This document shows, one piece after another, positions 1 through 55,627 of a stretch of 64,000 bases of DNA. The notes under the pieces are model-generated. The model worked only from the letters and a program-made list of their open reading frames with translations. It made no database searches and had not been told where the DNA came from. The position numbers and the translations under genes are program-made. The stretch lies in assembly GCA_965223545.1 (NCBI GenBank), contig OZ245006.1:301954-365953 (forward strand), given 5' to 3'. The stretch's first letter is position 1. Every line of letters starts with the position of its first letter. Source of the stretch: Planctomycetota bacterium. Its GTDB lineage: Bacteria > Planctomycetota > UBA1135 > UBA2386.

Positions 1-497
1 ACGCCACCATCAGCAAGGAGATCGGTGACCTGCAGGCTGTGCTGGACGCCGTCGGCACCCGGCGCGTCTTCTACGCCGGCCACAGCATGGGCGCCGCCGT
101 CGGTGTGTTGTGCGCCGCGCGCGATCCGCGGCTGGCGGGCTTGATCTCGCTCGCCGGCATGGTGCACGTCGCCGAGTTCATGCGCCGGCTGTTCGGCCAC
201 CTGACGCCGGACCGCGACGTGATGCTCGACAAGCCGCACTGCCCGCTGACCAGCGCGTTCTTGGCCGACGCCGAGGCGATCGGCGACGTGCTGGCGGCGG
301 CCGCCGAGATCGCCCAGCCATGGCTCTTGGTGCACGGCACCGCCGACGAGCTGGTGCCGCTGCGCGACGCCGAGGACGCGCGCGCCACTTGCCCAAGGGC
401 CGAGCTGTGGACCATCGCCGGCGCCGACCACCGGTTCACCGGTGTCGAGGACGCGGTCGGCGCGCGGGTCGCCGCCTGGGTCGCCCGCCACGCCTGA
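1..497 (+). CDS. alpha/beta-hydrolase fold protein, 5'-truncated at the window edge; possibly type II thioesterase-like
   Basis: In-frame ORF running off the window start. It has a GHSMG nucleophile-elbow motif and a downstream Asp/His region (LLVHGTADELVP ... DHRF). It lies immediately upstream of the NRPS. Confidence 0.6.
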   Translation, partial: ATISKEIGDLQAVLDAVGTRRVFYAGHSMGAAVGVLCAARDPRLAGLISLAGMVHVAEFMRRLFGHLTPDRDVMLDKPHCPLTSAFLADAEAIGDVLAAAAEIAQPWLLVHGTADELVPLRDAEDARATCPRAELWTIAGADHRFTGVEDAVGARVAAWVARHA

Positions 498-499
498 CG

Positions 500-560
500 A
501 CTGTCGAGAAATCCGACGCCGCAGCAGCGGGGTTTTTGAGCGACCTGCGCCCGCGCGAAT
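500..560 (+). terminator. Weak stem-loop followed by a T-run (gccgcagcagcggggttttt) downstream of the hydrolase gene
   Basis: Short GC stem followed by TTTTT, seen directly. The stem is only 4-5 bp. Confidence 0.25.
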
Positions 561-625
561 GCCGACATCAAAGGACACCGGCACTCCTGCGGGGGCGCCG
601 GCGCTCGACCCTGGTGCCGCGTAGG

Positions 626-3600
626 ATGGCCGACCCCCAGCTGCAACCCGACGTGCAAGACGCGTACGGCCTGTCCCACTTGCAGGCCGGCATGCTGTTC
701 CACGCCCAGTCGGCGGACCGGCCCGGGTTCGACGTGGAGCAGATCGTGCTCGAGCTGCGCGGTCCCCTGGACCGGGCGCGAATGCGGCGCGCCTGGCAGA
801 CCGTGGTGGCGCGGCACGCGGTGCTGCGCACCAGGATCCGGTTCCACGAGCTGCGCGAACCACGCCAGGAAGTCGTGGCCGCGGTCGACGTGCCCTGGAC
901 CGAGCACGACGGGCGGGGCGGCGCGTTCCCGCTGGACGAGCTCTTGCACGCCGACCGCACGCGGGGCTTCGACCTCGAGTCCGCGCCGCTGATGCGCTGC
1001 ACGCTGGTGCACCGCGGCGCCGATCGCGCCGAGCTGATCTGGACGCTACACCACATCATTCTCGACGGGCGCTCGTTCCCGCTGGTGCTGCGCGAGGTGT
1101 TCACGGTGTACGCCGCCGAGGACGGTCCGGCGCCGCAGCCCGACCTTCCGCCGTACCACACCTACATCGATTGGCTGGGCTCCGTCGACCACGAACAGAG
1201 CCGTGCGTTCTGGACCGAACGGCTGCGCGGCTTCAGCCAGCCGACCGCACTGCCCCTGACCTCCTTCCACCGCAGTCCACAACCCTCGACGATCGAGCTG
1301 ACGGCCACCTTGACCGCGGCCGAGACCAACCAGCTCGAGGCCGCCCTGGAGCCGGCCGATGCCTCGCTGAACACCGCACTGCAGGCGGCGTGGTCGGTCC
1401 TGCTGGCCCGTTACGCCGGCGACGAAGACGTCGTGTTCGGCGCCACCCGCGCCTGCCGCTACTTCGACAGCAATCCGCAGGCCAAGGCCATGGTCGGCCT
1501 GTTCATCAACACGCTGCCGCTCCGCGCCCAGCTGCGCGGCGCCACCGTCGAGGACTTGCTGCGGCAACTGCGCACCGACTGGATCGCGCAGCGGCCGGTC
1601 GAGCACACTCCGCTGGTCGACGTGCACCGCTTCAGCGAGCTGCCGGCGGGGACGCCGCTGTTCGAGACCCTGGTGGTCTATGACAGCGAGCCCCTGGCGG
1701 CTCGAATCTGCGGCACCGCCGGCGAGCTCGAGATCGTCGATGCCACGCTGCACGAGCAACCGACCTTCCCCCTGGTGTTGCTGGGCTACGGCGGCGAGCG
1801 CTTGCGGCTCAAGCTGTTGTTCGACGATGGCCGCTTCGAGCGCGGCATCGCCGAGCGGATGTTGGCGCAGGTCGCGGGCCTGCTGCGTTGGATGGCCAGT
1901 GGACTCGAGCAGCCGGTTGCCGAGGCACCGGTGCTGTCGCCGGCCGAGCACACCGAGATCGTCCGCACCTGGAACGACACCGGCGGGGCCCCACCCCGCG
2001 ACCGCTGTCTGCACGAAGACTTCGCCGAGCAGGCACGGCAGCGCCCGCTCGACACCGCCCTGCGCTGCGCCGAGGAGACCTGGAGCTACGCGCGGCTGGA
2101 GGCGACGGCCAATCGGCTCGCCCACCGGCTGCTGCGGGCCGGCGCCGGCGCAGGCGTCCGCGTCGGCATTTGTCTGGAGCGCGCGCCCGCGCTGGTCGCA
2201 GGCCTGCTGGCGATCGCCAAGACCGGGGCCACCTACGTGCCCTTGGACGCCGAGCTGCCCCTCGACCGCCGCCAGTTCATCGCCGAGGACGCGGACCTGG
2301 GTCTGCTGCTGACGCAGCAGGAGCTCGGCGGCGACCTGCAGCCCGGCTGCCCGGTGCTGTTGTTGCACGAGCTCGGCGCGGTGCTCGAGGACGGCCCCGA
2401 CCCCGGCCCGCCGGTGGCCGATCTCGACCCCGACCGCCCGGCGTACGTGATCTACACCTCGGGTTCGACCGGCCGGCCGAAGGGCGTGGTGGTCCACCAC
2501 CGCAGCGCGCTCAACACCATCGACTGGGTCAACGAGACCTACGCGGTCGGCCCGGGCGACTGCCTGCTGTTCGTGACCTCGGTTTGCTTCGACCTCTCGG
2601 TGTACGACGTGTTCGGCGTGCTCGGCGCCGGCGCCTGTCTGCGCATCGCGCGCGCCGGAGAGCTGGCCGACCCCGCGGCGCTGGCAGCGCGGCTGACGAG
2701 CGGCGAGATCACGTTCTGGGACTCGGCGCCGGCGTTCCTGCAGCAGGTCGCGCCGTTTCTGCAACAGCAGTCAGCGCCGCCATCCACCGGCGGCCTGCGC
2801 CTGGTGTTCCTCAGCGGCGACTGGATCCCGGTCACCCTGCCCGAGCGAGTGACGGCGCGTTTCCCCGGCTGCCAGATCATCAGCCTGGGCGGTGCCACCG
2901 AGGCGTCGATCTGGTCCAACTTCTACGCCGTCCAGAATGTCGGCGACCGGTGGCCGAGCATTCCCTACGGCACGCCGATCCGCAACTGCCGCTACCACGT
3001 GCTCGACAGCGCGCTGCGGCCGATGCCAGCGGGGGCCACAGGCGAGCTGTTCATCGGCGGCGACTGCGTGGTCGCCGGCTACCACCGCCGCGACGAGCTC
3101 ACCGCCGAACGCTTCATCCCGGACCCGTTCCACCCAGGCCAGCGGCTGTACCGCACCGGCGATCTCGCGCGCTACGACAGCTTTGGCACCCTGGAGTTCT
3201 TGGGCCGCGCCGACAACCAGGTCAAGGTGCGCGGCTACCGCGTCGAGCTCGGCGAGATCGAGGCCGCGCTCGGCCGCTGCCGCGGCGTCGCCGAAGCCAT
3301 CGTGGTCGCGCCGCGCGACGCCGACGGGACGCGCTCGATCGTCGGCTTCGTCGAGCCCAGCGACCGCGGCGCCGTCGACGCCGATCTGCTGCGCGTGGAG
3401 ATCGAGCGCTGGCTTCCGTCCTACATGGTGCCGGGACGCATCGAGATCCTCGAGCGCTGGCCGCTGTCGCCCAACGGCAAGGTGGACCGCGCGGCCCTCG
3501 AGCGCCGCCCCGGGCACACGGCAAGGGCCCCTTCCGCGCCGGCGGAGACCGACCTCGAGCGGCAGCTGGTGGCGATCTGGTGCGACCTCTTGAACCTCGA

Positions 3601-4675
3601 CGCGATCGGCCGAGACGACAACTTCTTCGATCTCGGCGGACACTCGCTGCGCGCGGCCCAGCTGGTCGCCGAGATCGAGCGACGCCTCGGCGCCCGACTG
3701 CCACTGGAGTCCGTCCTGCAGGCGCCGACCGTCCGCCAGCTCGGCGCCACGCTCGAGCAGGGGCTCGGCACGGGTTCCGGCAGCTCCTTCGTCCACTTCA
3801 ACGCGGGCGGACACCGCGACCCCGTGTTCTTGATCGCCGGAATCGGCGGTCAGGTGTTCATGTTCCGCGAGATGGCGCAGATCCTCGGCGTGGACCAACC
3901 GCTGTACGCCGGCAAGGCGATCGGCATCGACGGCCGCCGCCGCACGCCCGACCGCGTCGAGGACATCGCCGCGCAATACCTCACCGAGCTGCTCGAGCTG
4001 CAGCCCACCGGGCGCTATCGCCTCGGCGGCTACTCGTTCGGCGGGCTGATCGCGTTCGAGGTCGCCGCCCGGCTGCGCGCCAGCGGCCGCGAAGTGACCT
4101 GGCTCGGACTGTTCGACACCCTGGCCCCCGGCTACCCGAGGCGCAAGCCGCTGCCGCAGCGCCTGCGCGAGCATCTCCGCAACCTGCTCGCCGCCGACAA
4201 CGACGAGGCCGGCAACTACCTGCGGGAGCGATTGCACAACATCGGTCGCCGGATTCGCCGCCGCATTGGGATGCGCACCGACATCACCACTCTGCCGGGC
4301 ATGGACGCCCGCACGCAGGATCGCTTCGCCGCGGTCGAAGCGGCGCTCAACCGCGCCAAATGGCGCTATCGCCCCAGCCACAAGCTCGACGTGCCGATCA
4401 CCGTGTTCTGCGCCGAAGAGGGCTTCGATTGGCCGGCGACGACGTTCGACGACCCCGGCCTTGGCTGGAGCCGCTACACCACGGCGGCCGTGCACCACCA
4501 CGCGGTGCCGGGCAGCCACCTCGAGCTGTTCCAAGCGCCCAACGTCGGTCCGCTCTCACAGCGAGTCCGCGAGCAGCTGGCGCCGAGCGACACGGGCACG
4601 CGCGACGAGCATTCCGGCACCCGGGCGCAACAGGTGGCCGCCAACGCCGCCGGTCACTCCTCTTCGATGCGGTAG
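626..4675 (+). CDS. Non-ribosomal peptide synthetase, single module C-A-PCP-TE (about 1350 aa)
   Basis: ATG at 626 is in-frame with the 110..4675 ORF. Condensation motif HHIILDGRSF. Adenylation cores YTSGSTGRPKG, YRTGDL and PNGKVDR. Carrier-protein motif FFDLGGHSLRA. Thioesterase GYSFGG. Stop TAG at 4673-4675. Confidence 0.9.
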   Translation: MADPQLQPDVQDAYGLSHLQAGMLFHAQSADRPGFDVEQIVLELRGPLDRARMRRAWQTVVARHAVLRTRIRFHELREPRQEVVAAVDVPWTEHDGRGGAFPLDELLHADRTRGFDLESAPLMRCTLVHRGADRAELIWTLHHIILDGRSFPLVLREVFTVYAAEDGPAPQPDLPPYHTYIDWLGSVDHEQSRAFWTERLRGFSQPTALPLTSFHRSPQPSTIELTATLTAAETNQLEAALEPADASLNTALQAAWSVLLARYAGDEDVVFGATRACRYFDSNPQAKAMVGLFINTLPLRAQLRGATVEDLLRQLRTDWIAQRPVEHTPLVDVHRFSELPAGTPLFETLVVYDSEPLAARICGTAGELEIVDATLHEQPTFPLVLLGYGGERLRLKLLFDDGRFERGIAERMLAQVAGLLRWMASGLEQPVAEAPVLSPAEHTEIVRTWNDTGGAPPRDRCLHEDFAEQARQRPLDTALRCAEETWSYARLEATANRLAHRLLRAGAGAGVRVGICLERAPALVAGLLAIAKTGATYVPLDAELPLDRRQFIAEDADLGLLLTQQELGGDLQPGCPVLLLHELGAVLEDGPDPGPPVADLDPDRPAYVIYTSGSTGRPKGVVVHHRSALNTIDWVNETYAVGPGDCLLFVTSVCFDLSVYDVFGVLGAGACLRIARAGELADPAALAARLTSGEITFWDSAPAFLQQVAPFLQQQSAPPSTGGLRLVFLSGDWIPVTLPERVTARFPGCQIISLGGATEASIWSNFYAVQNVGDRWPSIPYGTPIRNCRYHVLDSALRPMPAGATGELFIGGDCVVAGYHRRDELTAERFIPDPFHPGQRLYRTGDLARYDSFGTLEFLGRADNQVKVRGYRVELGEIEAALGRCRGVAEAIVVAPRDADGTRSIVGFVEPSDRGAVDADLLRVEIERWLPSYMVPGRIEILERWPLSPNGKVDRAALERRPGHTARAPSAPAETDLERQLVAIWCDLLNLDAIGRDDNFFDLGGHSLRAAQLVAEIERRLGARLPLESVLQAPTVRQLGATLEQGLGTGSGSSFVHFNAGGHRDPVFLIAGIGGQVFMFREMAQILGVDQPLYAGKAIGIDGRRRTPDRVEDIAAQYLTELLELQPTGRYRLGGYSFGGLIAFEVAARLRASGREVTWLGLFDTLAPGYPRRKPLPQRLREHLRNLLAADNDEAGNYLRERLHNIGRRIRRRIGMRTDITTLPGMDARTQDRFAAVEAALNRAKWRYRPSHKLDVPITVFCAEEGFDWPATTFDDPGLGWSRYTTAAVHHHAVPGSHLELFQAPNVGPLSQRVREQLAPSDTGTRDEHSGTRAQQVAANAAGHSSSMR

Positions 4676-4678
4676 AGG
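4648..4678. repeat. 31-bp exact direct repeat, copy 1 (cgccggtcactcctcttcgatgcggtagagg); it contains the NRPS stop codon
   Basis: Identical 31-mer at 6053-6083, seen directly. Confidence 0.85.
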
Positions 4679-4718
4679 CCGGCGAGAAGACGTACTGCCA
4701 GCCCGAACCCACCGCCAT

Positions 4719-4751
4719 GAGCCCGGAGGCACTGTCTCTCCGAGCCTCCGG
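4719..4751. repeat. Palindromic hairpin element (tgagcccggaggc-13 nt loop-gcctccgg); a second copy lies at 47447-47482
   Basis: The same 13-mer and 8-mer arm with similar loops occur at both loci. This one lies just downstream of the ATPase gene on the minus strand. Confidence 0.6.
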
Positions 4752-4829
4752 CGCGGCGGCGACGTTGTCATGTCAGCGGCGTCGCCTCGAGAATGTTGTC
4801 GAAGCTCGAAGATTCGAGGCGCCGGAGGC

Positions 4830-5993
4830 TCACTGGCCCCGCGGCAGATCGAGAGTCATCCTCGATGCTGCCATCGCACGGATCCGCTCGTCCATCGGAT
4901 AGCTGTCTGTCCCGGCGTGCACCACGACCAACTCGTCGAGTGCGAGATCATCGAGCGCAACCCGCATCGAGCGTGTGATCCTCGGAGCTACGGTCCGCTT
5001 GATCTCGAAGCCGAGCTTCCTCCCCCCGTGTAGGGCCAGGAGATCCAACTCCGCGCCTGCGTGGGTCGCCCAGAAATGCACATCCCGCTCATCCAAAGCC
5101 AGGAGGTCGCAAATCTGCTGCAGGATGAACCCCTCCCACGAAGCTCCCACTTTCGGATGACTCTCCAGCGCGTCGATGCCCTCGATTCCGAGTAGGGAAT
5201 GGAGCAGGCCCGTGTCACGCAAGTAGATCTTGGGTGACTTGACTTGGCGCTTCTTGACGTTGTCAAACCAAGGCTGCAGCTGCCGCACTACGAGCAACGA
5301 AGACAGCACGTCCAGATACCACTTCGCCTGCTTGTTGCTCACATCCATCGAGCGCGCGATCTCGGACGCATTCCAGGTCTGACCGTGGTAGTGCGCCAGC
5401 ATCATCCAGAACCGACGCAGAGTTGGCGCCGGGGCCCTGATGCCGAACTGAGGGACGTCACGCTCCAAGAAAGTCGTGATGAAGTCTCGCCGCCACGCCA
5501 CGCTGGCCGCCGCGCCACGAGCTAGGAAAGAGCGCGGGAAACCGCCGCGCACCCAGAGCTTGTCCAGATCCCTACCCGCGACCTCGTCGACACCGAATCC
5601 GGGCAGCCAGTAGTACGCGACCCTACCGGCAAGCGACTCGGAGGATTGTTGCAGCAGGTCCGGAGAGGCACTTCCCAGGATCAGGAACCGGGCCGGCTTG
5701 CGCGGTCGATCGGCAAGGACTCGGAGGACTGAAAACACCTCGGGCAGACGTTGCACCTCGTCGAGAACCACCAGACCCCGCAACCGGCGCAACCCCAACA
5801 TCGGGTCGGCGAGGCGGGCAAGGTCCGCCGGGTTCTCGAGGTCGAAGTGGGTCACCTGCCCCCGCCGGCGCTCCGCGACCGCTCTGGCGATCGTCGTCTT
5901 GCCAACCTGCCTCGCCCCGAGCACGGCCACTACCGGATTGTCTCGCAACCGCCATTCAATGGCGCGCAAGTGCCTGCTCCGGACAATCATCAA
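4830..5993 (-). CDS. AAA+ ATPase with C-terminal DUF4143-like domain (AAA_14 family)
   Basis: Walker A motif GARQVGKTT. It has the typical ATPase plus DUF4143 layout at about 387 aa. Its composition is lower-GC than the rest of the window. Confidence 0.75.
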   Translation of the reverse strand: MMIVRSRHLRAIEWRLRDNPVVAVLGARQVGKTTIARAVAERRRGQVTHFDLENPADLARLADPMLGLRRLRGLVVLDEVQRLPEVFSVLRVLADRPRKPARFLILGSASPDLLQQSSESLAGRVAYYWLPGFGVDEVAGRDLDKLWVRGGFPRSFLARGAAASVAWRRDFITTFLERDVPQFGIRAPAPTLRRFWMMLAHYHGQTWNASEIARSMDVSNKQAKWYLDVLSSLLVVRQLQPWFDNVKKRQVKSPKIYLRDTGLLHSLLGIEGIDALESHPKVGASWEGFILQQICDLLALDERDVHFWATHAGAELDLLALHGGRKLGFEIKRTVAPRITRSMRVALDDLALDELVVVHAGTDSYPMDERIRAMAASRMTLDLPRGQ

Positions 5994-6052
5994 CCTTGAA
6001 AATTAGCCCTGTATCGACCAATTTTCCAGGTTCGCCCTTCGGGGGCTGCAGG

Positions 6053-6083
6053 CGCCGGTCACTCCTCTTCGATGCGGTAGAGG
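6053..6083. repeat. 31-bp exact direct repeat, copy 2; it contains the stop codon of the minus-strand PQQ-propeller gene
   Basis: Identical to 4648-4678. Confidence 0.85.
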
Positions 6084-21543: not shown

Positions 21544-23820
21544 TCAGCGCCCGCCGATCACCGCGCGGAGCGCGTTGCTCGCGGTGACGCCCAGCGGGTT
21601 CGCCGGTGGGTCGACAACGGCCGCCTGCGCGTAGAACTGCGCCGCGATCAGGCTGGGATCGGCGGGGATCGACAATCCGATCCGGGTCGAGCCGGCGCTC
21701 GACAACGCGAGGACGATGCCGGCGGCCGCGTTGGTGTAGAGCGCGCAGTTGGGCATGCCGATGCCCGCGAGCGGAACGGGCAACGTCAGCGCCCCCCACT
21801 GGCTGCTCGAGTCGCCCAGCACCAGCAGGCCGGGGCTCCCGGGCGGGACCGCATCGAGCTGCAGCGTCGCGTTTCCACCCAGCCACGGCAACCCGTAGGG
21901 CGCGACCGACAGCGCCGGGACTCCCGCCGAACCGGAGCAACCCGCGCCGAACGGCACCGCCGCTGCCGGCGCGTCGGGGGCGAGGCTCCACCAGTCGTCG
22001 AGGAGGGTCAACCTGCCGATCGCGCCACCACTGATCCACATCCGGCCGCGCGTGCCGTCGTAGGCGGCGGCGTGCTCGCTGCGGGGGGGCGGCGGAGTGG
22101 CGGGGTTCCGCTGCGTCCAGGTGACGCCGTCCCACTCCCAGACATCCGCAAACTCACGGCCGGCACCGAAGCCGCCGAACAAGACCACACAGCCGCGGGC
22201 GCGGTCGAAGGTCAGCGTGTGCCCGGACCGCGGCGACGGAGACGCGGAGGGCGAACGCTGGCTCCACTGGCCACCGACCCACTCCCAGGTATCGCCGAAC
22301 GTCGTCGCCGCGTTGACACCGCCGAACAGCACGACGGCATCCCGGCGGGCGTCGTAGGCCAACGCGTGCCGCTCCCTCGCCGGCGGGGACTGCGGCGACG
22401 GCTCGGCCCGCCACGCCACGCCATCGGTCGACCACGTATCCCCGATGATCCCACTCGCCGCACGACCGCCGAAGACCAGCCCGCGCCTGCTGGATTCCAT
22501 CCAGGCGAACCCGTGCTCACTCCGTTCCGGCGGAGGGTTCTGCTGGTTGACCTGCCGCCAGTCGTTGCCGTTCCACGACCAAAGGTCGTTGTAGAACACC
22601 GCGCGGTTGCCGCCGAACATGAGCGAGCGGCGATTGTCGCCGTCGTAGACCAACGAGTGTCCCACCCGCGGCGGAGGCCGGGTCACCGGCTGTCGCTGAA
22701 CCCAGTCCGTGCCCACCCACTCCCAGGTCTTGTTGCCGTGGGTCGCCATCGGCGCTCCGCCGAACGCCACGACTCGATCGCGGCTCGTGTCGTACGCCAG
22801 CGCGTGTCCCTGCACCGGGCGGGGAGCCGGATCGTTGCGCAGTGACCAGTCGCTGCCGTCCCACTCCCAGAGATCGCTGCCGTTTCCGTACAGCACCACG
22901 CGCCGGCGGGCCGGGTCGTAGGCCATGTCGTGACAGATGCGTCCCGGTGGCGTCTGGGAAGGCTGCTGGCGCGTCCAGTTCGTTCCGTCCCAGGTCCACG
23001 TGTCATTCAGTGGTTGCAGCAGCACACCCCGACCGCCGAACAGCACGACGACCCCACGCGCCGCGTCGAACGCCATCGCGTGGTCGAACCGTGCACTCGG
23101 TGACTGCGCCGGCGAACGCACGTTCCAATCGCCGCCATCCCAGACCAGCGTCGTGTCCACCTCGGTGGCGAACCTGATGATGCTCTCACCGCCAAACGCC
23201 ACGATCTCGCCGCGCACCGAGTCGTATGCCATCGCGAATCCTTCGAGCGGCTGCGGCAATGGGGCGCCGGCGCGCAGCTTCCAGTTCGTGCCATCGAACA
23301 CCCAGGTCTCGTCGCTCGACATGGCGCCGACCGAGCCCCCCGCCAACACCATCACGCCGCGGGCGGCGTCGAAGGCCATCGGCGCCCGCCGCCGTGGACT
23401 CGGCGACGAGGCCGGCAACACTTGCGCCCATTGGCTCCCGTCCCACTCCCAGGTGTCACCGAGCGAAGCGAACAGATTGGTCAGCCCACCGAACGCGACA
23501 ACCACGCCGCGGCTCGTATCCAAGGCGAGTGCGTGACTCATGCGCGCCGGCATGCTCCCGGTGGGGATCAGGGTCACGCGAGTACCGTCCCAGTGCCACG
23601 ACTCGGGCACGACAGCACCGAGGCTGTAGCCGCCGCCGACCACGAGGACGCCGCGGCCGCTCGGATCGGTGGCCATCCGTGGCTCGCTGCGGAACCCGGG
23701 AATCGGTGCACGCGTCCACGACAGCTGAGCGGCGGGACAGGTGCAGCAAGACACCACGGCGAGGGCTGCTGCGCCCAGCGTGGCTCGGCCCGAGGTGATG
23801 GGGTGGGAATCGGGTCTCAT
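21544..23820 (-). CDS. Secreted Kelch-repeat beta-propeller protein (about 14 repeats) with a C-terminal about 120 aa Ala/Gly/Pro-rich domain
   Basis: Signal peptide MRPDSHPITSGRATLGAAALAVVSCC. Repeating unit '...VVLFGG....DTWEWDG..W..' occurs about 14 times. Confidence 0.8.
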   Translation of the reverse strand: MRPDSHPITSGRATLGAAALAVVSCCTCPAAQLSWTRAPIPGFRSEPRMATDPSGRGVLVVGGGYSLGAVVPESWHWDGTRVTLIPTGSMPARMSHALALDTSRGVVVAFGGLTNLFASLGDTWEWDGSQWAQVLPASSPSPRRRAPMAFDAARGVMVLAGGSVGAMSSDETWVFDGTNWKLRAGAPLPQPLEGFAMAYDSVRGEIVAFGGESIIRFATEVDTTLVWDGGDWNVRSPAQSPSARFDHAMAFDAARGVVVLFGGRGVLLQPLNDTWTWDGTNWTRQQPSQTPPGRICHDMAYDPARRRVVLYGNGSDLWEWDGSDWSLRNDPAPRPVQGHALAYDTSRDRVVAFGGAPMATHGNKTWEWVGTDWVQRQPVTRPPPRVGHSLVYDGDNRRSLMFGGNRAVFYNDLWSWNGNDWRQVNQQNPPPERSEHGFAWMESSRRGLVFGGRAASGIIGDTWSTDGVAWRAEPSPQSPPARERHALAYDARRDAVVLFGGVNAATTFGDTWEWVGGQWSQRSPSASPSPRSGHTLTFDRARGCVVLFGGFGAGREFADVWEWDGVTWTQRNPATPPPPRSEHAAAYDGTRGRMWISGGAIGRLTLLDDWWSLAPDAPAAAVPFGAGCSGSAGVPALSVAPYGLPWLGGNATLQLDAVPPGSPGLLVLGDSSSQWGALTLPVPLAGIGMPNCALYTNAAAGIVLALSSAGSTRIGLSIPADPSLIAAQFYAQAAVVDPPANPLGVTASNALRAVIGGR

Positions 23821-45656: not shown

Positions 45657-45783
45657 GGGTTGGATGCGCGGCTGGCGCGGGGCGGCGCGAGGGCTCTGAC
45701 GCCGGCATCTTGCGGGATATTCTGCAAACGCGCAACGCCGCGTGTCACCGGCCACGCCATCGGCGCCACAAGGAGATGGAGCC

Positions 45784-47301
45784 GTGGACAAACCAACCGC
45801 AGTCGGCGCCGGAATGCTGTGCGGCGTGCACGCGATTCCCGTGCGGGTCGAAGCGACCCTGCGCGGCAGCGGCACGCCGCGCATCCTCGGCAGCGTGGAC
45901 ACCGTGGTGCGCGAGGCCTACCACCGATTGCTGACCGCGTTCCCCGCCGACGGGCTGGAGCCACCGCGCGGCTGCCCGACGATCAACTTCTCGCCGGCGA
46001 ACCTGCGCAAGACCGGCAGTGGGTTCGATCTGCCGATGGCATTGGCCCTGGCCGGCGCCGCCGGCCACTACCCGAGCGATCGCGCGGCGACCGTCACCGC
46101 GCTGGGTGAGCTGGGCCTGGACGGCGCGGTGCTGCCGGTGCGCGGGGCGGTGCCGGTGGCGATCGCCGCCGCCCGGACCGGCCGCCGCGACCTGTTGCTG
46201 GCCGAGCGCGACGCGCGGTTGGCCGCTCTGGTGCCGGGGGTCCGCGCCTTTGCCGTGGCGCGGCTGGCCCAGGCCATCGCCTGGCTGCGCGGGACCATCG
46301 ACCTGTCGCCGGCCGAGCCGGCGGCGCCGCCCCCGCCAGCCGCGGTCGCCGACCTCGCCGACATCCGCGGTCACGAGACGGCGAAGACCGCGCTGCAGGT
46401 GGCGGCGGCGGGCAACCACAACACGCTGCTCGTCGGGCCACCCGGATCGGGCAAGTCGGCGCTGCTGCGCCGGCTGCCCGGGCTGCTGCCCGCGGCCTCG
46501 CCGGGCGAGCAGCTGGAGATCATGGCGATCGGCTCGCTGCGCGCCGCCGACGGCTGCGCGCCGGCGGCGCAGCGGCCGGTGCGCTGCCCACACCACACCA
46601 GCAGCTTCGTCAGCCTGCTCGGCGGCGGCCCGGAGCTGCGCCCTGGCGAGGTCACCCTCGCGCATCGGGGCGTGCTGTTCCTCGACGAGCTGGCGGAGTT
46701 CCGCCGCGAGGCGCTCGAGGCCCTGCGGCAGCCACTCGAGGATGCAAAGGTCAGCGTCGGGCGGGCGCGCGGAGTGATCCAGATGCCGGCCGACTTCCTG
46801 TTCGTGGCGGCGATGAACCCGTGCCCGTGTGGCTACTGGGGACACCGCGGCCGCGCATGCGTGTGCGGGCCGTCGCAGCGGCGCCGCTACGCGGCGCGGA
46901 TCTCGGGGCCGCTGCTCGACCGCCTCGACCTGCAGGTGGCGTTGCCGCAGCTGTCCGCCGCCGAGCTCGCCCAGCCGGCCGACGCGCGCTGGTCGACCGC
47001 CGCCCTCCGCGCGCCGATCGACACGGCGCGGGCGCGCCAGGCTGCGCGCTCACCCCGGTCGCCGGTGCCCAACAGCCGGCTTGGCGGCGAGCTGCTGGAG
47101 GCGGCCATCGGACCGGACCAGGCCACCCGGACACGCCTCGACGCCTTGGTGCGGCGGCACCACTTGTCCGGCCGCGCCCGGGAGCGCCTGCTGCGGGTGG
47201 CACGGACGGTCGCCGACCTCGACGACCGCGATACGGTCACGGTCGAGGATCTGCTCGCGGCGGCGCGCTTGCGGGGGCTGCATCACTCGCCGACCGAATG
47301 A
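45784..47301 (+). CDS. comM: YifB/ComM-family Mg-chelatase-like AAA+ ATPase
   Basis: N-terminal Lon-protease-like domain. Walker A GPPGSGKS and Walker B VLFLDE. Zn-binding PCPCGYWGHRGRACVC. C-terminal Mg_chelatase_C domain. Confidence 0.85.
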   Translation: MDKPTAVGAGMLCGVHAIPVRVEATLRGSGTPRILGSVDTVVREAYHRLLTAFPADGLEPPRGCPTINFSPANLRKTGSGFDLPMALALAGAAGHYPSDRAATVTALGELGLDGAVLPVRGAVPVAIAAARTGRRDLLLAERDARLAALVPGVRAFAVARLAQAIAWLRGTIDLSPAEPAAPPPPAAVADLADIRGHETAKTALQVAAAGNHNTLLVGPPGSGKSALLRRLPGLLPAASPGEQLEIMAIGSLRAADGCAPAAQRPVRCPHHTSSFVSLLGGGPELRPGEVTLAHRGVLFLDELAEFRREALEALRQPLEDAKVSVGRARGVIQMPADFLFVAAMNPCPCGYWGHRGRACVCGPSQRRRYAARISGPLLDRLDLQVALPQLSAAELAQPADARWSTAALRAPIDTARARQAARSPRSPVPNSRLGGELLEAAIGPDQATRTRLDALVRRHHLSGRARERLLRVARTVADLDDRDTVTVEDLLAAARLRGLHHSPTE

Positions 47302-47355
47302 GCGTCGGGAGCCGGCATCTTCGCGCGGCGGCAGCTGCTCCGTTAAGCCCTCTGC

Positions 47356-47450
47356 GCTCAGCGCGGCCGAGGCCGCAAACACAAACACGGAGCATTCCGC
47401 GACCCGAGCGTCGGTCGCGGGTCCCGCGGTCGCCGGCGGCCGCGCTGAGC
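47356..47450. repeat. Nested palindromes: gctcagcgcggccg / cggccgcgctgagc arms enclosing an inner hairpin at 47398-47419
   Basis: Inverted repeats seen directly. A third direct copy of gctcagcgcggccg lies at about 47556. Confidence 0.55.
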
Positions 47451-47482
47451 CCGGAGGCCAGTGTTGTCTTCGAGCCTCCGGG
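47447..47482. repeat. Second copy of the hairpin element (tgagcccggaggc-15 nt loop-gcctccggg)
   Basis: Same arms as the 4719-4751 copy. Downstream motif ccggaggctca is also shared; cgagaatgtt recurs in inverted orientation. Confidence 0.6.
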
Positions 47483-47560
47483 AGTTGCGGTATCGAAGTC
47501 CCGGCGACGACGGGCCTTCCGAAAGGTTGTTGCCGCTCGAACATTCTCGGACCCGGAGGC

Positions 47561-49075
47561 TCAGCGCGGCCGCCCGGGTGCGCTGGAGTCGCGAGCTCCG
47601 CTGCTGTCGCGGCGGGTGTCCTCGTTGGTTGCGGCCCCGGCCGCGATGAGTGCATCCAAGGCCGCCGCTGGACCACCGACCAGTTCGGCGTCGCGCGCGG
47701 GCCGGAAGCCCTTTGGGTAGAGCTCGGCCGAGGTGCGGATGCGCTCGAAATCCCTGGCGAAGGCTTCGAACGCGTCGCGCGGGGCGTCGCAGCAGAACGC
47801 CATCGTCGCCTCGCCGACGCGGAACACCCAAACCTGGCAGCGGAAGCGGTGGTGCGCGCCCGCGCGGTCATCCTCGTAGTCGACGTCGATGCACACCGCC
47901 GGTCGGTCGCGGAGGGTGGTGACCCGCCGCCCCATCTCCTGCATCGCCGGGCGGACGTGCGCCAACCAACGCACGACCGTGTCCGCGGCTGACTCGAGCA
48001 TCAGCTGGCGGTCGATCTGGTCGAACGCCAGCAGGCATGCGCTGACCCCGCGGCCGGGGACCTGGAGCAATACGCCGCCCGGCGGCGCGGTGGCGGCCTG
48101 CCACGCCGGGTTGGGCAACCACAGCGCGAAGCGGCCCTCGGCCTCGGCCGCCAGTGCCGACGGGTAGGTCGAGTCCTCGAACGCCATCAGGCGACGCACC
48201 GCCGCCTCCGAAGCGGCGACGGCCACGAGCTGGGCGCCGTTGACCTCGCGGCGCAGAACGCGCGCGGAGGCGTCGACCCATTCGGTGTTGCCGGTGGACG
48301 CCGGGCCCGGGGCGGTGCACAGCTCGACCACCGTGCGGCGCACGCCGTCGATCTCCACTTCGCGCCGGCTGGCCGGGTAGACCGCCCGCTCGACGAACTC
48401 CTCGCGTTCGGGCACGAACAAGCGCACCACGCGCTCGTCGCGGAGCTCACCGTGGTTCTGCCGCATCGCGGCGGCGACGATCAGCGGGAACTGCATGCCG
48501 GTCCGCCAGGGGTGGCGCCGGCGCTGCCGGGGGCGCGCCCCGTGCGAATCGACCACGAGCTCGTCGCCGACCACTTCGCCGCGCACCAACCGCTCCTGCA
48601 GGACCCGGCCGTCCGCCGCCGTGCTGCGCTCGTGGTAGAAGCACGCCAGTGGCACCAAGTCGGCGCTGGCGGTCTCCAGAATCGTCACCGCGGTGGTGCG
48701 GGTGCCGTAGCGGAACTCCCACTCCTCGCCGATGCGCAGCAGCCCGTCCTCGGTCGCGGTCACGGTCGACTGCAATCTGCCGACGACGCGGCCCTCGGCG
48801 TCGTGCACCGCGAACCACTCATCGCGCGGATCCAGGGCGACCGGCACGGGTGCCGCCGCCACCGGCGCGTCCGCCATCGACTCGATCCTCGCCCGGTCGA
48901 AGCCGACGACGGTGCCATCGGCCAACCGGAGCTCGATGTAGCCCTCGGTCTGCTGCTGGATCTCGCCCTCCAGCTCGCCCCCGCCAACCAGCTGCAGCAA
49001 GACGCGCGGCGGCGGATCCTGGGGAGCCGGCACGGCGGAGATCAACGCAACGGCCAAGAGCAGGGGGTTCGGCAT
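47561..49075 (-). CDS. Secreted hypothetical protein
   Basis: Signal peptide MPNPLLLAVALISAVPAP. High GC3. Confidence 0.55.
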   Translation of the reverse strand: MPNPLLLAVALISAVPAPQDPPPRVLLQLVGGGELEGEIQQQTEGYIELRLADGTVVGFDRARIESMADAPVAAAPVPVALDPRDEWFAVHDAEGRVVGRLQSTVTATEDGLLRIGEEWEFRYGTRTTAVTILETASADLVPLACFYHERSTAADGRVLQERLVRGEVVGDELVVDSHGARPRQRRRHPWRTGMQFPLIVAAAMRQNHGELRDERVVRLFVPEREEFVERAVYPASRREVEIDGVRRTVVELCTAPGPASTGNTEWVDASARVLRREVNGAQLVAVAASEAAVRRLMAFEDSTYPSALAAEAEGRFALWLPNPAWQAATAPPGGVLLQVPGRGVSACLLAFDQIDRQLMLESAADTVVRWLAHVRPAMQEMGRRVTTLRDRPAVCIDVDYEDDRAGAHHRFRCQVWVFRVGEATMAFCCDAPRDAFEAFARDFERIRTSAELYPKGFRPARDAELVGGPAAALDALIAAGAATNEDTRRDSSGARDSSAPGRPR

Positions 49076-49195
49076 CACGGGGTCGTCGGGGGTCGATCCG
49101 GTCGAGACCAGAGGGGTCTCTGTTGTGTTCGACGTCAGCGACAGCCCCACTTGAGCGGGTTGGCGCCGGGGGACCCTGTCGGTGCCGCGCGATTC

Positions 49196-55566: not shown

Positions 55567-55627
55567 GGAACGCGGAACGAAGCGGAGGGAAACGGGGGGA
55601 AAGGCCGACGGCCGGGCACGCGCTGGT

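What the first reader, a model, noticed from the sequence alone, without database searches (positions are those of the whole stretch)
4719..4830. Hairpin repeat family shared between the ATPase insertion and a distant intergenic region
Inside the inserted segment, the sequence tgagcccggaggc-actgtctctccga-gcctccgg forms a 9-bp-stem hairpin. A near-identical element occurs at 47447-47482 (tgagcccggaggc-cagtgttgtcttcga-gcctccggg). Both loci also carry ccggaggctca about 90 nt downstream, and the 10-mer cgagaatgtt in opposite orientation. Both loci have additional local palindromes. This looks like a REP/MITE-like structured repeat that may be the mobile or recombinogenic part of the insertion. It could also act as a terminator for the ATPase gene.
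Basis: seen in the sequence. Interest (0 to 1): 0.55.

Follow-up and report, generated by a model that had tools for sequence, protein, structure and literature searches.

The report
Genome-specific hairpin repeat family, dispersed and tandem
The two hairpin sequences are real copies of a 115-118-base non-coding repeat that occurs at least 11 times in this one 8-Mb bacterial genome, including two tandem arrays; it is an ordinary REP/BIME/MITE-like intergenic repeat, and nothing shows that it caused the neighbouring ATPase gene insertion.

Summary
Observation confirmed and extended. Positions 4718-4832 and 47446-47563 are two full-length copies of one element, called E here (single-sequence nhmmer E=7.7e-7). 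Both are bounded by TGAGCC...GGCTCA and have unrelated flanks. Both lie between convergent genes, and the terminal TCA is the stop codon of the minus-strand gene. An 11-13-bp stem closing a ~92-nt hairpin dominates (p>=0.9).

A six-frame peptide query found two spurious ORFs from the same 8,065,702-bp contig. They read through tandem arrays of E alternating with an 81-84-nt spacer module, called S here. That gives at least 11 E copies at 4 or more loci, in two subfamilies.

Nothing similar turned up in Rfam, the 185,579 species genomes, metagenomes, viral contigs, plasmids or 1.84 billion representative proteins. E is also absent from the orthologous ComM site in relatives and from the closest ATPase homologue.

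Copy 1 lies 38 nt inside a 1,374-bp ATPase insertion flanked by perfect 31-bp direct repeats, not at its boundary.

Best reading: a lineage-specific mosaic intergenic repeat, BIME/NIME/MITE-like, that is a passenger in the insertion. Terminator and recombination-site roles are unproven. It is a new member of a known kind, of low to moderate interest.

The parts
4718..4832 (.). E module, copy e1 (type 1), 115 nt, TGAGCC...GGCTCA. It is a solo copy. Its terminal TCA (4830-4832) is the stop codon of the ATPase gene.
   Evidence: It is 84/86 compatible with the back-translated array-A unit. Its flank is unrelated to the S module.
4723..4751 (.). 8 bp, -15.6 kcal/mol when folded in isolation.
   Evidence: Pair probability <0.001 in the context of the whole element.
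4742..4831 (.). Dominant long hairpin of e1. The 13-bp perfect closing stem is GAGCCTCCGGCGC (4742-4754) / GCGCCGGAGGCTC (4819-4831).
   Evidence: I6; p 0.999 on + and 0.99 on -.
47446..47563 (.). E module, copy e2 (type 2), 118 nt. Its terminal TCA (47561-47563) is the stop codon of the 529-aa ORF.
   Evidence: Its translation plus the first 21 codons of the spacer is 54/54 identical to the N-terminus of P0242.
47472..47562 (.). Dominant long hairpin of e2. The 11-bp closing stem is GAGCCTCCGGG (47472-47482) / CCCGGAGGCTC (47552-47562). The competing short hairpin is 47450-47458 / 47474-47482.
   Evidence: p 0.90 and 0.98. The 11th pair is C-G in e1 and G-C in e2, a compensatory change.
47356..47445 (.). 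S (spacer) module, type 2. It is bounded by the inverted 14-mers GCTCAGCGCGGCCG (47356-47369) and CGGCCGCGCTGAGC (47438-47451). The 14-mer recurs at 47559-47572, giving a 203-nt unit period.
   Evidence: D12; I7. Similarity to the array spacer S1 is suggestive only (17 of 400 random segments score as high).
47564..47654 (.). Inverted, diverged S-like arm (71% complementary to 47353-47445). Together with S and e2 it forms a ~300-nt imperfect palindrome. It lies inside the C-terminal tail of the 529-aa ORF.
   Evidence: I1; E about 1e-6.
47376..47401 (-). Terminator-like hairpin CGCGGAATGCTCCGTG followed by TTTGTGTTTG, inside the S module and downstream of e2 on the minus strand.
   Evidence: This is a consensus match only; function was not tested.
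4648..4678 (.). Left copy of the perfect 31-nt direct repeat CGCCGGTCACTCCTCTTCGATGCGGTAGAGG. It holds the NRPS stop codon (TAG, 4673-4675).
   Evidence: (D1).
6053..6083 (.). Right copy of the 31-nt direct repeat. It holds the stop codon (TCA, 6059-6061) of the 684-aa PQQ beta-propeller gene.
   Evidence: (D1).
4679..6052 (.). The 1,374-bp inserted segment: 38 nt, then e1, then the ATPase gene, then its conserved promoter/operator, then about 20 nt.
   Evidence: GC is 58-65% against about 71% for the window. GC3 is 0.78 against 0.88-0.94 in most neighbouring genes.
4830..5990 (-). AAA_14 + DUF4143 ATPase gene (386 aa from the ATG). Its stop codon is at the native position compared with nine homologues.

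Best explanation
The two sequences belong to a non-coding, lineage-specific mosaic repeat family. The family has two palindromic modules.

- E is 115-118 nt, bounded by TGAGCC...GGCTCA. It folds into a ~92-nt hairpin closed by an 11-13-bp stem, preceded by a third copy of the arm that can form a weaker alternative hairpin.
- S is 81-85 nt, bounded by GCTCAGCGCGGCCG / CGGCCGCGCTGAGC.
- The two modules share the pentanucleotide TGAGC/GCTCA where they join.

Shown:
- E occurs alone (copy 1), as S-E-inverted S (copy 2), and as E-S-E-S tandem arrays at two other places in the same genome.
- There are two subfamilies, about 70% identical to each other, and each has near-identical copies.

Inferred:
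- The family spreads inside this genome like BIME/NIME/MITE-type repeats. Arrays would grow by unequal recombination or slippage. Single modules would reach new intergenic sites by a hairpin-directed or TGAGC-directed mechanism that leaves no clear target duplication.
- On the mRNA of the abutting gene, E forms a long hairpin that includes the stop codon. Where S is present, it adds a terminator-like hairpin plus T-tract. The side effect would be 3'-end protection or termination.
- In the ATPase insertion, E is a resident repeat carried along, or inserted next to the gene's stop codon. It is not the agent of the insertion.
For: - **Homology and boundaries.** (D20; E=7.7e-7 over the full length).
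- **Structure.** (I6).
- **Position.** Both copies lie between convergent genes, and the minus-strand gene's stop codon falls in the element.
- **Array A (six E + six S).** P0241 carries 65-aa (195-nt) units. The E part is 36/38 identical to the e1 translation and 84/86 compatible at back-translated positions.
- **Array B (three E + three S).** P0242 mixes both subfamilies. Its first 54 residues are identical to e2 plus the start of S in the window.
- **Same genome.** Both ORFs come from the same 8,065,702-bp contig as the window's own proteins.
- **Non-coding.** GC3 in that frame is 0.61-0.67, against 0.88-0.94 in most of the window's genes, and the ORFs have no Pfam hit.
- **Lineage-specific.**
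  - No Rfam match.
  - The 70 GTDB anchor hits are single hits per genome, and none shares the 3' block.
  - Metagenomes gave 0 hits and then 9 unrelated hairpins.
  - Viral contigs and plasmids gave none.
  - phmmer against 1.84e9 representative proteins returned only the two source-genome ORFs.
- **Not a conserved cis-element of the flanking genes.** The ComM/orthologue synteny is kept in a relative whose 223-nt spacer has no obvious E (read by eye) and no nhmmer hit at E<=1. In another relative the two genes overlap.
- **Not part of the ATPase unit.**
Against: - No transposase, RAYT or integrase was found in the window, and the rest of the genome could not be read. Mobility is therefore inferred from distribution only.
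- No target-site duplication is visible at copy 1. GCGC at copy 2 is ambiguous because it is palindromic.
- No empty-site comparison was possible.
- The array DNA was seen only through one reading frame of two annotated ORFs.
- The element's TGA coincides with the native stop codon of the ATPase. This is unexplained by random insertion and could mean a functional or targeted relationship.
- Homology between the array spacer S1 and the window's S is only suggestive (p about 0.04).
Confidence: 0.6

Rival explanations
1. E, with or without S, is mainly a functional 3'-end RNA module. On the abutting gene's mRNA it would form a stable hairpin starting at the stop codon, protecting against 3' exonucleases, terminating transcription from both convergent genes, or slowing ribosome release. 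Its spread would be secondary.
For: - Same orientation relative to the abutting gene at both loci, with the stop codon inside the closing stem.
- The long hairpin is strongly favoured on both strands.
- One compensatory pair extends the stem.
- S carries a terminator-like hairpin plus T-tract downstream on the same strand.
- REP/BIME elements are reported to affect mRNA stability and to favour convergent gene pairs (PMC3184786).
Against: - E itself has no U-tract.
- E is absent from the orthologous site in relatives and from ATPase homologues.
- Tandem arrays of 3 to 6 units are hard to explain as 3' UTRs.
- Fold z-scores are only modest, -1.8 to -4.0.
- With two nucleotide sequences, covariation has almost no power.
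Confidence: 0.2
2. The units are genes for a family of small RNAs, arranged singly and in tandem arrays. Each unit would have its own promoter in S and E as the structured body.
For: - Tandem arrays of about 195-201-nt units, each with a stable hairpin and a terminator-like site.
- Tandem sRNA gene arrays are known in other bacteria (own knowledge).
Against: - No conserved promoter. The single sigma-70-like match lies in e1 only and is not conserved in e2.
- No Rfam match.
- The family is not conserved outside one genome.
- Copy 1 lacks S altogether.
Confidence: 0.08
3. One reading: E is the cis-acting recombination or mobility site that brought the ATPase gene in. That would make it an attC-like or att-like structured site of a single-gene cassette.
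For: - E starts exactly at the native stop codon of a single foreign-looking gene, inside a 1,374-bp insertion with perfect 31-bp direct repeats.
- e1 is about 98% compatible with array units. So the donor was this genome or a close relative that carries the family.
Against: - E is 38 nt inside the left repeat, and the right end of the insertion has nothing similar.
- Copy 2 is not associated with any long direct repeat or inserted gene.
- ATPase homologues elsewhere have no E and no direct repeats.
- No integron core sites (GTTRRRY) at the element ends (read).
- No integrase in the window.
Confidence: 0.07
4. The repeats are protein-coding. P0241 and P0242 would be real repeat proteins, and e1/e2 would be gene fragments.
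For: Two annotated ORFs of 400 and 201 aa read through the arrays without stop codons.
Against: - GC3 is 0.61-0.67 in that frame, against 0.88-0.94 in most genes of the window.
- Arg/Pro/Gly-rich composition typical of off-frame GC-rich DNA.
- No Pfam hit.
- No homologue in 1.84e9 representative proteins outside this genome.
- e1 and e2 are not in ORFs in that frame that make biological sense.
Confidence: 0.02

Closest known systems
REP sequences, BIMEs and REPINs of Enterobacteria, Pseudomonas and Stenotrophomonas
   Same: - GC-rich intergenic palindromes that occur singly or in mosaic tandem clusters.
- Favoured between convergent genes, able to fold in mRNA, and linked to mRNA stability and recombination (PMC3184786; PMC3116915).
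- The E/S alternation in arrays resembles the mosaic of REPs and other motifs in BIMEs.
   Different: - REPs are 20-40 nt with a GTAG or CGTC tag (PMC3733652). E is 115-118 nt, and its hairpin is preceded by TGAG.
- REPINs are symmetric inverted REP doublets. E is asymmetric (arm, inverted arm, ... arm).
- No RAYT could be looked for outside the window.
- The known copy number is 11, not hundreds.
Neisserial intergenic mosaic elements (NIMEs: RS elements flanked by dRS3 inverted repeats)
   Same: Non-coding arrays of 50-150-bp repeat units, each bounded by short inverted repeats, placed next to genes and proposed to promote recombination of flanking genes (PMC1797815). Here E and S units are bounded by TGAGC(C)/GCTCA-containing inverted repeats and form arrays.
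   Different: - No sequence similarity.
- The dRS3 consensus ATTCCC-N8-GGGAAT is absent.
- Only two module types are seen here, against more than 100 RS families.
- No evidence here for a role in recombination.
Bacterial MITEs that fold into long hairpins (Correia/CREE, ERIC, RUP; Coxiella MITEs)
   Same: About 100-160 nt, non-coding, with terminal inverted repeats and a long RNA hairpin. They insert close to or overlapping gene ends and can supply stop codons (PMC2229807, PMC5896051, PMC1797815).
   Different: - The outer inverted repeat is only 6 nt (TGAGCC).
- No target-site duplication.
- No parent IS is known.
- Tandem arrays with a second module are not typical of MITEs.
Integron attC sites
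   Same: A structured imperfect palindrome of similar size lying directly after the stop codon of a single inserted gene.
   Different: - No R''/R' core sites.
- No integrase or cassette array in the window.
- The insertion has 31-bp direct repeats, which integron recombination does not make.

Membership tests
REP / REPIN-RAYT | 20-40-nt imperfect palindrome carrying a GTAG or CGTC tag at one end (PMC3733652) | tested here: not met
   The hairpin is preceded by TGAG and followed by CTCA on the other strand. The conserved unit is 115-118 nt.
REP / REPIN-RAYT | REPIN: two REPs in inverted orientation around a short spacer, forming a symmetric hairpin (PMC3116915) | tested here: not met
   The arms are arranged CCGGAGGC ... 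GCCTCCGG ... CCGGAGGC. The left end is not an inverted copy of the right end beyond TGAGCC.
REP / REPIN-RAYT | A RAYT (Y1 transposase) gene in the genome, flanked by the repeats | not testable with these tools
   No Y1_Tnp or other transposase was found among the window's main ORFs. The rest of the 8.07-Mb genome could not be fetched.
REP / REPIN-RAYT | Tens to hundreds of dispersed extragenic copies | tested here: inconclusive
   At least 11 E copies at 4 or more loci. Copies not covered by an annotated ORF are invisible to the method used.
MITE | Terminal inverted repeats | tested here: inconclusive
   The outer inverted repeat is only 6 nt (TGAGCC/GGCTCA). There is an inner 11-13-bp inverted repeat. 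At copy 2 the inverted repeat extends into the flanks (17 bp perfect, about 92 nt at 71%), but those flanks are S modules.
MITE | Target-site duplication | tested here: not met
   The flanks are ...ccgcca|E|ctggcc at copy 1 and ...gcgc|E|gcgc at copy 2. The latter is palindromic and so ambiguous.
MITE | A parent insertion sequence with the same ends | not testable with these tools
Mosaic intergenic repeat arrays (BIME / NIME kind) | Two or more palindromic module types alternating in tandem non-coding arrays, and also found singly | tested here: met
   P0241 reads through (E1-S1) x6. P0242 reads through E2-S2-E1-S1-E2'-S2. The window holds a solo E and an S-E-inverted S arrangement. The non-coding nature rests on GC3.
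Mosaic intergenic repeat arrays (BIME / NIME kind) | Sequence membership in the E. coli BIME or Neisseria NIME families | tested here: not met
   No dRS3 or REP consensus is present. No Rfam hit, and no hits in any other genome.
Intrinsic (Rho-independent) terminator | GC-rich hairpin directly followed by a U-tract | tested here: not met
   No terminator-like site within E on either strand. The only site is in S, at 47401-47376 on the minus strand.
Integron attC | Inverse core and core sites (RYYYAAC ... GTTRRRY) at the ends, with an integrase or cassette array nearby | tested here: not met
   No GTTRRRY at or near either end of e1 or e2 (read). No integrase among the window's ORFs.
Any Rfam RNA family | Covariance-model match | tested here: not met
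   0 hits at gathering thresholds for the whole window. In E-value mode at both loci, only noise well below the gathering scores.

The most novel reading that the evidence does not exclude
E and S modules could be the cis-acting sites of an unrecognised mobilisation or recombination system. It would relocate single genes and generate long (31-bp) target duplications that preserve overlapping convergent gene ends. The AAA_14/DUF4143 (PD-(D/E)XK-like) ATPase would be either cargo or the enzyme acting on the hairpins.
Probability: 0.06. Interest if true: 0.75.

Novelty: new member of a known kind. Interest (0 to 1): 0.3.

Why it matters
If the reading is right, this adds a lineage-specific mosaic repeat family to a poorly studied, Planctomycetota-related genome. 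Practical consequences:

- At least two annotated proteins of that genome (P0241, P0242) are probably artefacts of repeat arrays.
- One real gene (the 529-aa ORF) has a C-terminal tail made of repeat DNA.
- Such repeats are useful markers for strain typing, and they are likely hotspots for rearrangement.

It does not by itself explain the ATPase insertion. That insertion's perfect 31-bp duplication of two overlapping gene ends remains the more unusual feature of the region.

Tried and rejected
- **Rfam.** A gathering-threshold scan of the whole window and E-value scans of both loci found nothing.
- **Exact-anchor scans.**
  - GTDB species genomes gave 70 single hits, none sharing the 3' block, so I read them as chance matches.
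  - Metagenomes gave 0 hits with the three-block pattern. The stem-only pattern gave 9 hairpins, which I judged unrelated inside by reading them.
  - Viral contigs gave 0.
- **blastn against plasmids.** Nothing.
- **Fetching the source genome by exact protein look-up.** It failed for five window proteins or their annotated forms and for P0241.
- **Orthologous ComM locus in relatives.** No element.
- **ATPase homologue contexts.** No element and no direct repeats.
- **A long direct repeat around copy 2, analogous to the 31-mer at copy 1.** None was found. There is only a weak 28-nt match at 79% identity (47345-47372 vs 47706-47733, E=0.29), which I do not trust.
- **Homology of the 38 nt beyond e1.** Tested against the array spacer (random level) and against the sequence downstream of ATPase homologues (none).
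- **Rejected readings.**
  - Integron attC: no core sites.
  - IS200/IS605-like ends: no matching left and right hairpins, and the 31-bp duplication does not fit.
  - Canonical terminator: no U-tract.
  - Protein-coding repeats: low GC3.
  - tRNA-linked integration: no tRNA in the window.
- **Not done.** No covariance model was built, because two nucleotide copies give no power.
Full report
**1. The observation**

TGAGCCCGGAGGC occurs exactly twice in the window, at 4718 and 47446. In both places GCCTCCGG follows after a 13- or 15-nt loop, and CCGGAGGCTCA lies about 105 nt from the start (4822-4832 and 47553-47563). The stem is 8 bp at locus 1 and 9 bp at locus 2.

The similarity extends well beyond the hairpin:
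- The two loci align collinearly from TGAGCC to GGCTCA (115 and 118 nt, about 70% identity).
- The alignment stops at both ends.
- The last 41 nt are 78% identical in the same orientation (D20).

Copy 1 used alone as an nhmmer query finds copy 2 over its full length at E=7.7e-7. The next hit is at E=0.35. The window holds no third copy. The inverted 10-mer CGAGAATGTT is real, but it falls at non-homologous positions of the collinear alignment, so it is incidental.

**2. Anatomy**

I call the element E. It carries three copies of one arm:
- CCGGAGGC at 4723-4730
- its complement GCCTCCGG at 4744-4751
- CCGGAGGC again at 4822-4829

The middle arm can pair with either neighbour, and the two pairings exclude each other.
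- The pairing with the distal arm is longer. It is 13 bp perfect in copy 1 (4742-4754 / 4819-4831, I6) and 11 bp in copy 2 (47472-47482 / 47552-47562). It closes a hairpin of about 92 nt.
- In partition-function folds of either strand, this long stem has pair probability 0.90-0.999.
- Folded in isolation, the short hairpin is worth -15.6 and -19.8 kcal/mol in the two copies. It could therefore form transiently on a plus-strand transcript before the distal arm is made. That is inference.
- The 11th pair of the long stem is C-G in copy 1 and G-C in copy 2, one compensatory change.
- Fold z-scores are modest, -1.8 to -4.0.

**3. Context in the window**

Both copies lie between convergent genes.
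- Locus 1: an NRPS (110-4675, +) faces an AAA_14/DUF4143 ATPase (4830-5990, -).
- Locus 2: a ComM/YifB Mg-chelatase-like gene (45742-47301, +) faces a 529-aa gene with no Pfam match but gene-like GC3 of 0.91 (47561-49150, -). Evidence.

At both loci the terminal TCA of E is the stop codon of the minus-strand gene. On that strand the UGA is paired inside the closing stem.
- For the ATPase, the stop codon is at the native position: the protein ends at the same alignment column as the longest of nine homologues.
- For the 529-aa gene, the ORF runs about 37 residues beyond the C-terminus of its orthologue (40% identity) before reaching the element's stop codon.

No Rfam family matches. E has no U-tract on either strand.

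**4. Locus 2 is more than E**

E sits at the centre of the longest inverted repeat in the window. The arms 47353-47445 and 47564-47654 are 71% complementary (blastn E about 1e-6; I1, 69). The first 17 bp on each side are perfect. The left arm has its own terminal inverted repeat, GCTCAGCGCGGCCG (47356) / CGGCCGCGCTGAGC (47438) (I7). That 14-mer recurs at the right end of E, 203 nt further on (D12). I call this second module S.

On the minus strand, S contains a terminator-like hairpin followed by TTTGTGTTTG (47401-47376). The right arm is the stretch that forms the extra C-terminal tail of the 529-aa ORF.

**5. More copies in the same genome**

The source genome could not be fetched by exact protein look-up. 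Its annotated proteins, however, are in the protein collection. They can be recognised by their contig length of 8,065,702 bp.

I joined the six-frame translations of both copies into one query. It gave one hit among 5.8 billion clusters, P0241.

*Array A (P0241):*
- P0241 has six tandem units of exactly 65 residues, that is 195 nt. The first unit is cut by the ORF start.
- Each unit holds a 38-residue part that is 36/38 identical to copy 1 read on the minus strand, followed by a 27-residue spacer.
- Back-translated, 84 of 86 determined positions agree with copy 1.

*Array B (P0242):*
- A phmmer search with P0241 against 1.84 billion representative proteins returned only itself, P0242, and one protein I judged unrelated from its sequence (28% identity).
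- P0242 comes from the same contig.
- It reads E(type 2)-S2-E(type 1)-S1-E(type 2 variant)-S2.
- Its first 54 residues are identical to the translation of copy 2 plus the start of S in the window. After that it continues differently, so it is another locus.

*What follows from this:*
- In this frame GC3 is 0.61-0.67, against 0.88-0.94 in most of the window's genes. Both ORFs are therefore almost certainly spurious calls over non-coding repeats.
- The genome holds at least 11 E copies at four or more loci.
- There are two subfamilies, each with near-identical members. E occurs with S or alone.
- The 38 nt next to copy 1 do not resemble S (score at the random level), so copy 1 is a solo E.
- The array spacer S1 resembles the window's S only suggestively (17 of 400 random segments score as high).

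**6. Distribution outside this genome**

Nothing was found elsewhere:
- 70 single hits to the hairpin anchors in 185,579 species genomes, none sharing the 3' block.
- 0 hits, and then 9 hairpins I judged unrelated by reading them, in metagenomes.
- None in viral contigs or plasmids.

The closest ComM homologues (64-65% identity) are from Planctomycetota MAGs. In one of them the ComM/orthologue synteny is kept. Its 223-nt spacer shows no obvious E by eye, and nhmmer over all loci then held found nothing there at E<=1. In another relative the two genes overlap.

E is therefore a lineage-specific addition. It is not a conserved cis-element of its flanking genes.

**7. Link to the ATPase insertion**

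A perfect 31-nt direct repeat (4648-4678 and 6053-6083, D1) flanks 1,374 bp. The repeat holds the overlapping 3' ends of the NRPS gene and of a 684-aa PQQ beta-propeller gene.

In order, the insert contains 38 nt, E, the ATPase gene, its promoter region, and about 20 nt.

The ATPase looks foreign. Its GC is 58-65% and its GC3 is 0.78.
- Its closest homologue (79% identity) sits in an unrelated, lower-GC contig. The two share the upstream palindromic operator (GAAAATT...AATTTTC) and the C-terminal length. The homologue has no E and no direct repeats.
- A Gemmatales homologue gives the same picture.

E is not at either boundary of the insertion, and the right end holds nothing similar. Copy 2 has no comparable direct repeat.

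Copy 1 is about 98% compatible with the array units. So the inserted piece carries a resident repeat of this genome next to a foreign gene. Either [E + ATPase] was relocated within the lineage, or E landed at the ATPase stop codon after the insertion. I cannot tell which. What made the 31-bp duplication also remains unexplained.

**8. Comparison with known kinds**

The closest kinds are REP/BIME clusters, neisserial NIMEs and hairpin-forming MITEs (PMC3184786, PMC3116915, PMC3733652, PMC1797815, PMC2229807).

The general pattern is met: palindromic modules that occur singly and in mosaic arrays, lie at gene ends between convergent genes, and are specific to one lineage.

The specific definitions are not met:
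- no GTAG/CGTC tag
- not a symmetric REPIN
- no target-site duplication
- no dRS3 consensus
- no attC core sites

Whether a RAYT or parent IS exists could not be tested. No transposase or integrase is among the window's main ORFs, and the window has no tRNA gene.

**9. Verdict**

This is a real, lineage-specific mosaic hairpin repeat family, a new member of a known kind. The emphasis on the short hairpin, the terminator idea and the causal link to the insertion are not supported. Interest is low to moderate.

Noticed in passing
window 4648-4678 and 6053-6083 (insert 4679-6052): A perfect 31-nt direct repeat flanks a 1,374-bp single-gene (AAA_14/DUF4143 ATPase) insertion. It duplicates the overlapping 3' ends of a convergent NRPS gene and a PQQ beta-propeller gene, so both stay intact. 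The mechanism is unknown (att-like recombination, or a staggered break with fill-in?).
   Followed up: partly
window 5994-6030; L071 4040-4090; L084 2950-2990: ATPase homologues from unrelated contigs keep a palindromic motif just upstream of the start codon. It reads CCTTGAAAATT...AATTTTCCAGG in the window and is a 17-bp perfect inverted repeat, ACCTTGAAATCTCGGTG/CACCGAGATTTCAAGGT, in a Gemmatales MAG. It is probably an operator travelling with the gene.
   Followed up: partly
window 47561-47672: The 529-aa ORF extends about 37 residues beyond the C-terminus of its orthologue. It runs through the inverted S arm and ends at the stop codon supplied by E, so the repeat has created a C-terminal tail.
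   Followed up: partly
P0241 and P0242 (source genome, outside the window): Two annotated proteins of the source genome (400 and 201 aa) are made entirely of E/S repeat units read in one frame. GC3 is low and there is no Pfam hit. They are probably annotation artefacts over tandem repeat arrays.
   Followed up: yes
L076 975-1058, L077 4303-4386, L080 2998-3093 (-): Three metagenomic sequences share the same outer stem CGAGCCTCCGG/CCGGAGGCTCA. They also share an inner layout (GCCTCCGG-loop-CCGGAGG ... TTCCCNCCGGGA-loop-CCGGAGGCTCA) and have no Rfam match. They may be an undescribed structured RNA, and I saw no interior similarity to E.
   Followed up: partly
L073 1120-1225; L078 906-999 / L079 2287-2380: The stem-only metagenome scan also turned up other hairpins. 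One is a tandemly repeated ~65-nt hairpin unit (L073). Another is a 94-nt hairpin whose arms read as a near-perfect ~27-bp stem, identical in two contigs (L078, L079).
   Followed up: no
window 47345-47372 and 47706-47733: A weak direct similarity (22/28 nt, E=0.29) between the left edge of the S module and the region coding for the native C-terminus of the 529-aa gene. It is too weak to call a degenerate target duplication, but its position recalls the 31-mer at locus 1.
   Followed up: partly
window 4673-4675 / 4718-4720 and 47299-47301 / 47446-47448: At both loci the left-end TGA of E is in frame with the stop codon of the upstream plus-strand gene (45 and 147 nt apart). The chance of this is about 1 in 9, so it is probably a coincidence.
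   Followed up: no
window 22100-23320: Several direct-repeat families with spacings that are multiples of about 145-150 nt (D1, D9, D11). I take them to be a repeat-containing coding region rather than a non-coding array, but this was not tested.
   Followed up: no
window 52984-58294: Two adjacent paralogous Big_5-domain genes (860 and 888 aa) with 74-79% identical stretches about 2.7 kb apart.
   Followed up: no
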